Virus record (IMG/VR): IMGVR_UViG_2671180458_000002
Strand: one strand, 5' to 3'
DNA from: a virus
Taxonomy: Duplodnaviria; Heunggongvirae; Uroviricota; Caudoviricetes
Length of the DNA: 33,821 nt
Position 1 is the first letter of the stretch. Each line of letters begins with the position of its first letter. A program made the position numbers. This document shows positions 18,001 through 21,643 of this stretch, one piece after another.

Positions 18001-21000
18001 TGGCGGCGGCGAAAAAGGACTATGAAGCGACGCTGAAAAAGCCGAAACAGTCCGGCGTGAAGGTGTCTGCGGGCGATCGTCAGGAAGACAGTGCTCATGC
18101 TGCCCTGCTGACGCTTCAGGCTGAACTCCGGACGCTGGAGAAGCATGCCGGAGCAAATGAGAAAATCAGCCAGCAGCGCCGGGATTTGTGGAAGGCGGAG
18201 AGTCAGTTCGCGGTACTGGAGGAGGCGGCGCAACGTCGCCAGCTGTCTGCACAGGAGAAATCCCTGCTGGCGCATAAAGATGAGACGCTGGAGTACAAAC
18301 GCCAGCTGGCTGCACTTGGCGACAAGGTTACGTATCAGGAGCGCCTGAACGCGCTGGCGCAGCAGGCGGATAAATTCGCACAGCAGCAACGGGCAAAACG
18401 GGCCGCTATTGATGCGAAAAGCCGGGGGCTGACTGACCGGCAGGCAGAACGGGAAGCCACGGAACAGCGCCTGAAGGAACAGTATGGCGATAATCCGCTG
18501 GCGCTGAATAACGTCATGTCAGAGCAGAAAAAGACCTGGGCGGCTGAAGACCAGCTTCGCGGGAGCTGGATGGCAGGCCTGAAGTCCGGCTGGAGTGAGT
18601 GGGAAGAGAGCGCCACGGACAGTATGTCGCAGGTAAAAAGTGCAGCCACGCAGACCTTTGATGGTATTGCACAGAATATGGCAGCGATGCTGACCGGCAG
18701 TGAGCAGAACTGTCGCAGCTTCACCCGTTCCGTGCTGTCCATGATGACAGAAATTCTGCTTAAGCAGGCAATGGTGGGGATTGTCGGGAGTATCGGCAGC
18801 GCCATTGGCGGGGCTGTTGGTGGCGGCGCATCCGCGTCAGGCGGTACAGCCATTCAGGCCGCTGCGGCGAAATTCCATTTTGCAACCGGAGGATTCACAG
18901 GAACCGGCGGCAAATATGAGCCAGCGGGGATTGTTCACCGTGGTGAATTTGTCTTCACGAAGGAGGCAACCAGCCGGATTGGCGTGGGGAATCTCTACCG
19001 GCTGATGCGCGGCTATGCCACCGGTGGTTATGTCGGTACACCGGGCAGTCTGGCTGACAGCCGGTCGCAGGCGTCCGGGACGTTTGAGCAGAATAACCAT
19101 GTGGTGATTAACAACGACGGCACGAACGGTCAGATAGGGCCACAGGCACTGAAGGCTGTTTATGACGTAGCCCGTAAGGCGGCAATGGATGTTGTGACCG
19201 GGCAGATGCGCGATGGTGGTCTGTTCTCCGGAGGTGGACGATGAAAACCTTCCGCTGGAAAGTGAAACCCGGTATGGATGTGGCTTCGTCCCCTTCTGTA
19301 AGAAAGGTGCGCTTTGGTGATGGCTATTCCCAGCGAGCGCCTGCCGGGCTGAATGCCAACCTGAAAACGTACAGCGTGACGCTTTCTGTCCCCCGTGAGG
19401 AGGCCACGGTACTGGAGTCGTTTCTGGAAGAGCACGGGGGCTGGAAAGCCTTTCTGTGGACGCCGCCTTATGAGTGGCGGCAGATAAAGGTGACCTGCGC
19501 AAAATGGTCGTCGCGGGTCAGTATGCTGCGTGTTGAGTTCAGCGCAGAGTTTGAACAGGTGGTGAACTGATGCAGGATATCCGGCAGGAAACACTGAATG
19601 AATGCACCCGTGCGGAGCAGTCGGCCAGCGTGGTGCTATGGGAAATCGACCTGACAGAGGTCGGTGGAGAACGTTATTTTTTCTGTAATGAGCAGAACGA
19701 AAAAGGTGAGCCGGTCACCTGGCAGGGGCGACAGTATCAGCCATATCCCATTCAGGGGAGTGGTCTTGAACTGAATGGCAAAGGCACCAGTACGCGCCCC
19801 ACGCTGACGGTTTCTAACCTGTACGGTATGGTCACCGGGATGGCGGAAGATCTGCAGAGTTTGGTCGGCGGAACGGTGGTCCGGCGTAAGGTTTACGCCC
19901 GTTTTCTGGATGCGGTGAACTTCGTCAACGGAAACAGCGACGCCGATCCGGAGCAGGAGGTGATCAGCCGCTGGCGCATCGAGCAGTGCAGCGAACTGAG
20001 CGCGGTGAGTGCCTCCTTTGTACTGTCCACGCCGACGGAAACGGATGGCGCTGTTTTTCCGGGACGTATCATGCTGGCCAACACCTGCACCTGGACCTAT
20101 CGCGGCGATGAGTGCGGTTATCACGGTCCGGCGGTCGCGGATGAATATGACCAGCCGACGTCCGATATCACGAAGGATAAATGCAGCAAATGCCTGAGCG
20201 GTTGTAAGTTCCGCAATAACGTCGGCAACTTTGGCGGCTTCCTTTCCATTAACAAACTTTCGCAGTAAATCCCATGACACAGACAGAATCAGCGATTCTG
20301 GCGCACGCCCGGCGATGTGCGCCAGCGGAGTCGTGCGGCTTCGTGGTAAGCACGCCGGAGGGGGAAAGATATTTCCCCTGCGTGAATATCTCCGGTGAGC
20401 CGGAGGCGTATTTCCGTATGTCGCCGGAAGACTGGCTGCAGGCAGAAATGCAGGGTGAGATTGTGGCGCTGGTCCACAGCCACCCCGGTGGTCTGCCCTG
20501 GCTGAGTGAGGCCGACCGGCGGCTGCAGGTGCAGAGTGATTTGCCGTGGTGGCTGGTCTGCCGGGGGACGATTCATAAGTTCCGCTGTGTGCCGCATCTC
20601 ACCGGGCGGCGCTTTGAGCACGGGGTGACGGACTGTTACACGCTGTTCCGGGATGCTTATCATCTGGCGGGGATTGAGATGCCGGATTTTCATCGCGAGG
20701 ATGACTGGTGGCGTCACGGTCAGAATCTCTATCTGGATAATCTGGAGGCCACAGGGCTGTATCAGGTGCCGTTGTCATCAGCACAACCGGGCGATGTGCT
20801 GCTGTGCTGTTTTGGTTCATCGGTGCCGAATCATGCCGCCATTTACTGTGGTGATGGCGAGCTGCTGCACCATATTCCTGAACAACTGAGCAAACGAGAG
20901 AGGTATACCGACAAATGGCAGCGACGCACACACTCCCTCTGGCGTCATCGGGCATGGCGCGCATCTGCCTTTACGGGGATTTGCAACGATTTGGCCGCCG

Positions 21001-21643
21001 CATCGACCTTCGTGTGAAAACGGGGGCTGAAGCCATCCGCGCACTGGCCACACAGCTCCCGGTGTTTCGTCAGAAACTGAGCGACGGCTGGTATCAGGTA
21101 CGGATTGCCGGGCGGGACGTCAGCACGTCCGGGTTAACGGCGCAGTTACATGAGACTCTGCCTGATGGCGCTGTGATTCATATTGTTCCCAGAGTCGCCG
21201 GGGCCAAGTCAGGTGGCATATTCCAGATTGTCCTGGGGGCTGCCGCCATTGCCGGATCATTCTTTACCGCCGGAGCCACCCTTGCAGCATGGGGGGCAGC
21301 CATTGGGGCCGGAGGTATGACCGGCATCCTGTTTTCTCTCGGTGCCAGTATGGTGCTCGGTGGTGTGGCGCAGATGCTGGCACCGAAAGCCAGAACTCCC
21401 CGTACACAGACAACGGATAACGGCAAACAGAACACCTATTTCTCCTCACTGGATAACATGGTTGCCCAGGGCAATGTTCTGCCGGTTCTGTACGGTGAAA
21501 TGCGCGTGGGGTCACGCGTGGTTTCTCAGGAGATCAGCACGGCAGACGAAGGGGATGGTGGTCAGGTTGTGGTGATTGGTCGCTGATGCAAAATGTTTTA
21601 TGTGAAACCGCCTCCGGGCGGTTTTATCGTTTATGGAGCATGA

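What the first reader, a model, noticed from the sequence alone, without database searches (positions are those of the whole stretch)
20274..21017. Tail protein K ORF extends 48 codons upstream of the classical start
The ORF begins 6 nt after the L stop at 20274, whereas the 199-aa form I recall for lambda would start at 20418 (MSPEDW). The extension includes a Glu-containing segment just upstream of the JAMM-like HSHP...S..D motif, so the longer product would complete an MPN/JAMM metalloprotease-like fold ahead of the NlpC/P60-like domain.
Basis: partly seen in the sequence, partly recalled or inferred. Interest (0 to 1): 0.35.

Follow-up and report, generated by a model that had tools for sequence, protein, structure and literature searches.

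The report
Full-length lambda tail protein K gene
The 247-codon reading frame is the real, complete gene for tail assembly protein K (a JAMM metalloprotease domain followed by an NlpC/P60 peptidase domain); the textbook 199-residue version comes from one missing G in the 1982 lambda reference sequence, so this is a sound but already known correction.

Summary
The ORF at 20274..21017 (+) is 247 codons. It starts at an ATG 5 nt after the L stop and 48 codons upstream of the classical MSPEDW start at 20418.

The extension is real coding sequence.
- It raises the Pfam Prok-JAB match from half a domain (23 bits, below cutoff) to a full domain (52 bits).
- It supplies the catalytic Glu (E19) of a perfect E...HxHx7SxxD motif.
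- It is conserved in about 100 distant relatives (E19 99%, G22 and N38 100%), whose own N-termini coincide with it.
- It has dN/dS of 0.09-0.26.
- AlphaFold models it at pLDDT 95-97, and the fold matches PfJAMM1, Rpn11 and AMSH.

The classical Met49 is Ile in most relatives.

The 199-aa form exists because J02459/NC_001416 lacks one G (lambda 14266, window 20408), which closes the upstream frame. Every independent lambda sequence has the G, including a resequenced cI857 ind1 Sam7 genome. PGAP already annotates 247 aa.

The JAB + NlpC/P60 architecture of the K family was published in 2006, so this is not novel. It is useful mainly as an annotation correction. The enzyme activity and the substrate (probably the ubiquitin-like domain of gpI) remain untested.

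The parts
19570..20268 (+). Gene L (minor tail/tail tip protein L, 232 aa), ending in TAA at 20266-20268
   Evidence: Pfam Phage_tail_L in syntenic loci
20269..20273 (+). 5-nt L-K spacer (ATCCC). There is no Shine-Dalgarno sequence, so initiation by termination-reinitiation coupling is inferred
   Evidence: no anti-SD pairing upstream of 20274. Citrobacter and Budvicia homologues have the same 5-nt gap
20274..21017 (+). Full-length gene K, 247 aa (28.2 kDa) plus stop
20274..20417 (+). N-terminal 48 codons missing from the classical 199-aa annotation. They form JAB helix 1 (residues 3-15) and strands at 21-27 and 30-36
20328..20330 (+). Codon for E19, the JAMM catalytic Glu (P17-x-E19-x-C21-G22)
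   Evidence: E19 is 99% conserved in 100 distant relatives and present in 266/267 relatives
20280..20585 (+). Prok-JAB (JAMM/MPN+) domain, residues 3-104
   Evidence: 52.3 bits; 2KKS
20475..20516 (+). Zinc-site motif H68-S-H70-x7-S78-x2-D81
   Evidence: H68, H70 and D81 are 100% conserved and S78 93%
20408..20408 (+). The G that is absent from J02459/NC_001416 (after lambda coordinate 14266). Its absence closes the upstream frame in the reference record
20402..20420 (+). Internal GGAGG (20402-20406) plus ATG 20418, the classical start (Met49). This is a possible but unconserved internal initiation site
   Evidence: -9.5 kcal/mol; 11 nt from GGAGG to ATG; Met49 statistics
20604..20945 (+). NlpC/P60 (C40) peptidase domain, residues 111-224, with C121 (20634-20636), H187 (20832-20834) and H199 (20868-20870)
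   Evidence: 49 bits; invariant D120, H187 and H199 with near-invariant C121; Foldseek match to MepS
20915..21586 (+). Gene I (223-aa form). It overlaps K by 103 nt in another frame and encodes the ubiquitin-like domain (residues 14-97) that is the predicted substrate of K
   Evidence: PMC1779556

Best explanation
20274..21017 encodes the complete tail tip assembly protein K of a lambda-like prophage. It is a 247-residue, two-domain enzyme with an N-terminal JAMM/MPN+ zinc-metalloprotease (JAB) domain (residues 3-104) and a C-terminal NlpC/P60 cysteine-peptidase domain (residues 111-224).

Shown here:
- The 48 upstream codons are conserved coding sequence.
- They carry the catalytic Glu and the first helix and two strands of the JAB fold.
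- The family-wide protein N-terminus coincides with this start.
- The 199-aa 'classical' K arises because the 1982 reference sequence (J02459) lacks one G at 14266, which closes the frame.

Inferred: translation starts at ATG 20274 by coupling to termination of L, 5 nt upstream, because there is no Shine-Dalgarno sequence.

Inferred from the family literature: K acts during tail-tip assembly as a peptidase and is not kept in the virion. Its most likely substrate is the ubiquitin-like N-terminal domain of gpI, encoded by the next, overlapping gene. I put that substrate assignment at about 0.4.
For: Pfam: the long form gives Prok-JAB over residues 3-104 at 52.3 bits plus NLPC_P60. The short form gives JAB at only 23.3 bits, below cutoff.

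Distant relatives: of 103 relatives below 65% identity, 101 align from query residue 20 or earlier (median 6) to their own residue 8 (median), with median length 244 aa.

Conservation in 100 distant relatives: E19 99%, C21 94%, G22 100%, N38 100%, F47 96%, H68/H70/D81 100%.

Met49 is Met in only 2/78 relatives at 50-70% identity and 12/102 below 50%. It is mostly Ile.

dN/dS of codons 2-48 is 0.09 (Citrobacter) and 0.26 (Salmonella), no higher than for codons 49-104.

Structure: AF2 gives pLDDT 93.5 and pTM 0.88, with residues 1-40 at 95-97. Foldseek matches 2KKS, PfJAMM1 5LD9 (rmsd 2.5 A over 107 columns), AMSH, Rpn11, CSN5 and MepS. phmmer against PDB aligns 2KKS to residues 7-105.

Reference error: J02459/NC_001416 lack a G that is present in LC730321, KT232076, PV340536, DE3, lambda imm21, phage 21 and metagenome/Logan contigs. 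MW057783, which is lambda cI857 ind1 Sam7, differs from J02459 at only six sites, one of them 14266 insG.

Annotation: PGAP annotates 247 aa (WP_000194779.1) in E. coli genomes. The junction occurs in 4330 of 5426 complete E. coli genomes.

Synteny: M-L-K-I-J order is conserved, with a 5-nt L-K gap in Citrobacter and Budvicia.

Published architecture and the K-to-I prediction: PMC1779556. gpK was not detected in virions by MS: PMC10721106.
Against: There is no Shine-Dalgarno sequence before ATG 20274, whereas the internal ATG 20418 has GGAGG 11 nt upstream. This is why gene callers and some curators still pick 199 aa. I found no protein-level evidence (N-terminal sequence, peptide or gel size) for either form: a peptide search of the literature returned nothing. 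No enzymatic activity of either domain has been shown. The gpI substrate rests on gene neighbourhood and on cryo-EM models that begin at gpI residue 101 or 135. An N-terminal domain that is flexible but still attached would explain those models equally well.
Confidence: 0.9

Rival explanations
1. Only the classical 199-aa product is made, starting at ATG 20418 behind its GGAGG. The upstream 48 codons are an untranslated or fortuitously open leader.
For: There is a strong SD-like GGAGG before 20418 and none before 20274. The reference, DE3 and lambda imm21 annotations and many automatic calls use 199 aa.
Against: The extension is under purifying selection and carries invariant catalytic and core residues. 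Relatives start at the long position, and most lack Met at position 49. The short product would contain only the second half of a JAB domain. The 199-aa annotation traces back to a 1-nt omission in J02459.
Confidence: 0.03
2. Both forms are made in E. coli lambda-like phages: full-length K by coupling to L, plus a shorter NlpC/P60-containing isoform from internal initiation at Met49. This is compatible with the best explanation as an add-on.
For: GGAGG plus ATG is present. Met49 is kept in 17/20 relatives at 90% identity or more and in 28/67 at 70-90%. One metagenome scaffold (L014) has an in-frame TAG at codon 46, just before Met49.
Against: Met49 is replaced by Ile in most relatives, so any short isoform is not a family feature. 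The GGAGG is also explained by the coding sequence Pro-Glu-Ala (CCG GAG GCG). Its 11-nt spacing is longer than optimal. L014 may be a decaying prophage or an assembly error.
Confidence: 0.15
3. The long protein is made, but the JAB domain is a non-catalytic structural or chaperone module, and only the NlpC/P60 domain (or neither domain) is enzymatic.
For: No activity has been reported. Many MPN domains (MPN-) are scaffolds. K is needed for assembly but is absent from virions (PMC10721106).
Against: All five JAMM motif residues are present at the exact spacing and are 93-100% conserved across distant relatives. MPN- scaffolds typically lose them.
Confidence: 0.1

Closest known systems
Bacteriophage lambda tail tip assembly protein K (gpK; AAA96551 / NP_040598) and the 'TAPK' family of Iyer, Burroughs and Aravind 2006 (PMC1779556)
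   Same: The DNA is 97.6-98.9% identical to lambda and its close relatives across L-K-I. The M-L-K-I-J order is the same. The C-terminal 199 residues are nearly identical to lambda K (5 substitutions between the translations). The JAB + NlpC/P60 architecture is as published for the family.
   Different: The reference records annotate only 199 aa because they lack the G at 14266. Here, and in every independently sequenced lambda, the frame is open and gives 247 aa.
JAMM/MPN+ metalloproteases: AfJAMM, PfJAMM1 (5LD9/5LDA), HvJAMM1 desampylase, Rpn11, CSN5, AMSH
   Same: The E-x(n)-H-x-H-x7-S-x2-D motif is present. The fold matches (Foldseek, prob 1.0; PfJAMM1 TM-target 0.67, rmsd 2.5 A). There is a weak NCBIfam desampylase hit over residues 3-103. 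These enzymes remove ubiquitin-like modifiers or process Ubl C-termini.
   Different: Here the domain is fused to an NlpC/P60 peptidase and sits in a phage tail gene cluster. Sequence identity is only 13-25%. No activity or substrate has been demonstrated.
NlpC/P60 (MEROPS C40) peptidases such as E. coli MepS/Spr (8XUP)
   Same: The Pfam NLPC_P60 match is above cutoff. The Cys121/His187/His199 triad is conserved. The fold matches.
   Different: K is absent from virions. It is therefore more likely to act on a protein substrate during assembly than on peptidoglycan during infection (inference; PMC1779556).

Membership tests
JAMM/MPN+ (Pfam Prok-JAB PF14464) | Profile match above the curated gathering score covering the whole domain | tested here: met
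   52.3 bits against a cutoff of 25, residues 3-104 = profile 3-112/114. The 199-aa form fails (23.3 bits).
JAMM/MPN+ (Pfam Prok-JAB PF14464) | Motif E-x(n)-H-(S/T)-H-x7-S-x2-D (defined in PMC300881) | tested here: met
   E19 ... H68-S69-H70-x7-S78-x2-D81, 93-100% conserved in distant relatives.
JAMM/MPN+ (Pfam Prok-JAB PF14464) | MPN fold | tested here: met
   AF2 pLDDT 93.5. Foldseek top hits are 2KKS, PfJAMM1, AMSH, Rpn11 and CSN5.
JAMM/MPN+ (Pfam Prok-JAB PF14464) | Zinc binding and (iso)peptidase activity | not testable with these tools
   Needs biochemistry.
NlpC/P60 (C40, PF00877) | Profile match above the gathering score | tested here: met
   49.2 bits against a cutoff of 23, residues 111-224 = profile 1-105/105.
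NlpC/P60 (C40, PF00877) | Catalytic Cys-His-(His/polar) triad | tested here: met
   C121, H187 and H199 are invariant or nearly invariant.
Lambda tail tip assembly protein K (TAPK) | Position between the L homologue and the Ubl-containing I homologue, upstream of J | tested here: met
   Window ORF order. The same order is seen in Citrobacter, Salmonella, Budvicia and Gilliamella loci.
Lambda tail tip assembly protein K (TAPK) | Close sequence identity to lambda K | tested here: met
   97.6% DNA identity to lambda over L-K-I. phrog_30 'minor tail protein' E = 5e-164.
Lambda tail tip assembly protein K (TAPK) | Required for tail assembly and not retained in the virion | not testable with these tools
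   Literature only: PMC10721106 and PMC12617516.

The most novel reading that the evidence does not exclude
gpK is a dedicated maturation protease for a viral ubiquitin-like module. On this reading its complete JAMM domain (only present in the 247-aa form) clips the Ubl domain off gpI near the conserved GAKSGG motif (gpI G100-G101). Only the C-terminal membrane-active 'plug' part of gpI (residues ~101-223, which is what cryo-EM resolves) would then stay in the tail tip, while K and the Ubl domain leave. That would be a working Ubl/JAMM processing step in virion assembly. It was predicted in 2006 and has never been tested, partly because the field has worked with a truncated K.
Probability: 0.35. 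Interest if true: 0.55.

Novelty: already known. Interest (0 to 1): 0.17.

Why it matters
Practical value only. The RefSeq and GenBank lambda reference, and records copied from it, still list a 199-residue K that lacks half of its metalloprotease domain. At least one recent structural review analysed K as '199 residues' and reported only the peptidase domain (PMC7291167). Anyone cloning, modelling or mutating lambda K from the reference annotation would use a truncated protein without the catalytic Glu. Using the 247-aa form is a precondition for testing the long-standing prediction that K processes the ubiquitin-like domain of gpI.

Tried and rejected
1. AF2 of the 199-aa form gave pLDDT 92.8 with the same local structure. 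AlphaFold does not penalise a missing half-domain, so this comparison does not discriminate.

2. Literature searches for an explicit published statement of the K start correction or the 14266 G found nothing. The Casjens and Hendrix 2015 review and the Liu et al. 2013 ribosome-profiling paper are not held. I recall a vendor (NEB) note listing 138 delG and 14266 insG for lambda cI857 ind1 Sam7 DNA. That is memory only, but reproduce exactly those differences.

3. A search for tryptic peptides of the extension in paper texts returned no hits.

4. The GTG at 20382 (the 211-aa form annotated in KT232076) was rejected as a start. It would remove E19 and the conserved residues 5-36.

5. I tested whether the 199-aa protein clusters in public collections reflect real frame breaks. 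In 4 of 5 contigs examined the frame is open and the gene caller simply chose the internal ATG. One contig, L014, has a TAG at codon 46.

6. Virion MS data give only one gpI peptide, so they cannot show whether the Ubl domain is removed.

Full report
**What is in the sequence**

The window is a lambda-like prophage. It runs from a lysis region through Nu1, A, B, C and E to H, M, L, K, I, J, lom and side-fibre genes. Across L-K-I it is 97.6-98.9% identical to lambda, 2H10, Turner and phage 21.

The ORF at 20274..21017 on the + strand is 247 codons. Gene L ends with TAA at 20266-20268, five bases (ATCCC) follow, and then comes ATG 20274. In this frame the nearest upstream stop is at 20250-20252. 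None of the seven codons in between can serve as a start. The classical lambda K start, MSPEDW, is ATG 20418, exactly 48 codons downstream.

**Is the extension coding?**

Six independent lines say yes.

1. Pfam. The long form matches Prok-JAB (PF14464) over residues 3-104, profile positions 3-112 of 114, at 52.3 bits against a cutoff of 25. It is followed by NLPC_P60 over residues 111-224. The 199-aa form keeps only profile positions 63-112 at 23.3 bits, below the cutoff. PHROG 30 and the NCBIfam desampylase model show the same N-terminal gain.

2. Family-wide N-termini. An exhaustive HMMER search of 1.84 billion representatives gave 2787 relatives. Of 103 full-length relatives below 65% identity, 101 align from query residue 20 or earlier (median 6) to their own residue 8 (median). 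Their median length is 244 aa.

3. Residue conservation in 100 such relatives:
   - In the extension: H11 84%, P17 92%, E19 99%, C21 94%, G22 100%, N38 100%, F47 96%.
   - In the zinc-site motif: H68, H70 and D81 100%, S78 93%.
   - The motif spacing is exact: E19 ... H68-S-H70-x7-S78-x2-D81.

4. The classical Met49 is not conserved. It is Met in 17/20 relatives at 90% identity or more, 28/67 at 70-90%, 2/78 at 50-70% and 12/102 below 50%. Otherwise it is mostly Ile. E19 is present in 266/267.

5. Selection. dN/dS of codons 2-48 is 0.09 against a Citrobacter homologue and 0.26 against a Salmonella homologue. That is no higher than for codons 49-104 (0.13 and 0.44).

6. Structure. AlphaFold2 with a 58-sequence alignment gives mean pLDDT 93.5 and pTM 0.88. 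Residues 1-40 score 95-97 and form helix 3-15 and strands 21-27 and 30-36, which are integral to the MPN fold. Foldseek against the PDB returns 2KKS, PfJAMM1 (5LD9; rmsd 2.5 A over 107 columns; TM-target 0.67), AMSH, Rpn11 and CSN5 for the first domain, and MepS for the second. phmmer against PDB sequences aligns 2KKS to residues 7-105.

**Why the textbook protein is 199 residues**

Aligning the L-K junction shows that J02459/NC_001416 lack one G, reading GGAGGC-TATTTCC where the window reads GGAGGCGTATTTCC. The site is window 20408, after lambda coordinate 14266. In the reference record the upstream frame is therefore closed, and the first usable start is 14276.

The G-less state occurs only in J02459, NC_001416 and two records with reference-identical coordinates: OR474059 (an 'unverified' strain record) and OR974322. 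The G is present in:
- LC730321, KT232076, PV340536, DE3, lambda imm21 and phage 21;
- metagenome, Logan and NCBI contigs, even where a 199-aa product had been called.

The strongest evidence is MW057783. It is deposited as a Campylobacter phage but is lambda cI857 ind1 Sam7. It differs from J02459 at exactly six sites: 138 delG, 14266 insG, 37589 C>T, 37742 C>T, 43082 G>A and 45352 G>A. The genotype that was originally sequenced therefore carries the G when resequenced. LC730321, an stf+ lineage, shows the same two indels. The 199-aa K is an artefact of a one-base omission, propagated by annotation transfer (DE3 and imm21) and by gene callers that favour the internal GGAGG.

Other annotators already use 247 aa: PV340536, phage 21, MW057783 and PGAP (WP_000194779.1, 'C40 family peptidase'). 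The junction sequence occurs in 4330 of 5426 complete E. coli genomes.

**Initiation**

ATG 20274 has no Shine-Dalgarno pairing. The internal ATG 20418 has GGAGG 11 nt upstream, at -9.5 kcal/mol. Because L terminates 5 nt before ATG 20274, termination-reinitiation coupling is the likely mechanism. This is an inference. Citrobacter (82% identity) and Budvicia (57%) keep the same 5-nt gap and also lack an SD. A minor internal isoform from Met49 cannot be excluded in E. coli lambdoids, but it is not a family feature.

**Function**

It is shown that K carries two intact peptidase active sites, JAMM and Cys121/His187/His199.

From the literature:
- The JAMM motif of lambda K was noted in 2003 using the truncated entry (PMC300881).
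- The JAB + NlpC/P60 architecture, its linkage to the ubiquitin-like domain of gpI, and the prediction that K cleaves gpI at the C-terminal glycine of that domain were published in 2006 (PMC1779556).
- gpK is required for assembly but was not detected in virions by mass spectrometry and has not been resolved in cryo-EM maps (PMC10721106 and PMC12617516).

Consistent with processing, but not proof of it: cryo-EM models of gpI begin at residue 101 (PMC11101478) or 135 (PMC10721106). The Ubl domain ends at ...AGAKSG100G101. The IHIVP-x-x-GAK motif is conserved in I homologues. A flexible N-terminal domain that is still attached would explain the maps equally well. Virion MS found only one gpI peptide.

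**Comparison with what is known, and novelty**

This is lambda gpK itself, in a close relative of lambda, and a member of the published TAPK family. All sequence-testable membership criteria for JAMM/MPN+, NlpC/P60 and TAPK are met. Nothing here is new in kind.

The useful outcome is a documented explanation of why the reference annotation is wrong. It also carries a warning that recent work still treats K as a 199-residue single-domain peptidase (PMC7291167). I found no paper that states the correction explicitly. My recollection of a vendor note listing 138 delG and 14266 insG is memory only, although reproduce it.

**Verdict**

- Observation: confirmed.
- Novelty: already known.
- Interest: low (0.17).
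- The open question is biochemical: whether the JAMM domain, present only in the 247-aa form, processes gpI.

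Noticed in passing
window 20915-21586 versus 21014-21586: Gene I has the opposite annotation problem. PGAP and Prodigal call a 190-aa product from the GTG that overlaps the K stop. Pfam Lambda_tail_I (the ubiquitin-like domain) covers residues 14-97 of the 223-aa form and only profile positions 26-83 of the 190-aa form. Homologues start at MA-x-(I/V)-R-(F/L)-YGDLQ, equivalent to Met14. The true start is therefore ATG 20915 or ATG 20954, which makes K and I overlap by 64-103 nt in different frames.
   Followed up: partly
window 16749-19244 (gene H): The tape measure protein is 831 aa, against 853 aa in lambda. It has a clean 22-residue deletion (lambda H residues 251-272) and is otherwise 95% identical. 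By the tape-measure rule of about 1.5 A per residue (my own knowledge), the tail would be about 3 nm shorter.
   Followed up: partly
L027 (J02459) positions 138 and 14266, against L026 and L028: The reference lambda sequence also carries an extra G at 138, in the non-coding region before nu1, relative to two independent resequenced genomes. The 48,502-bp length is therefore right only because two indel errors cancel.
   Followed up: yes
L028 (MW057783.1, 'Campylobacter phage CJLB-4'): This record is lambda cI857 ind1 Sam7. It has six differences from J02459 over 48,361 bp, including the ind1, cI857 and Sam7 markers. It is almost certainly control or spike-in DNA deposited as a Campylobacter phage. 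OR974322 ('isolate P6/2022/SA', from chicken swabs) has reference-identical coordinates and lacks the G. That suggests a reference-guided assembly of lambda control DNA.
   Followed up: partly
L014 positions 68-81 (ENA metagenome scaffold ZHUF20-1...37003): A K homologue has an in-frame TAG at codon 46, three codons before Met49. It is either a decaying prophage or a natural case in which only the short product could be made.
   Followed up: no
window 25770-29386: An uninterrupted 1010-codon ORF is followed by a 194-codon ORF in the position of stf/tfa. The side tail fibre gene is therefore not frameshifted as it is in laboratory lambda PaPa. LC730321 likewise has an extra C at 20832 relative to J02459.
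   Followed up: no
proteins P0008, P0021, P0033, P0040, P0045 (L-K fusions) and P0015, P0029, P0079 (K-I fusions): Public collections contain predicted fusions of L with K (PF05100 + JAB + NlpC/P60) and of K with I (PF06805). K-I fusions were noted by Iyer et al. The L-K fusions may be read-through or indel artefacts at the 5-nt junction.
   Followed up: no
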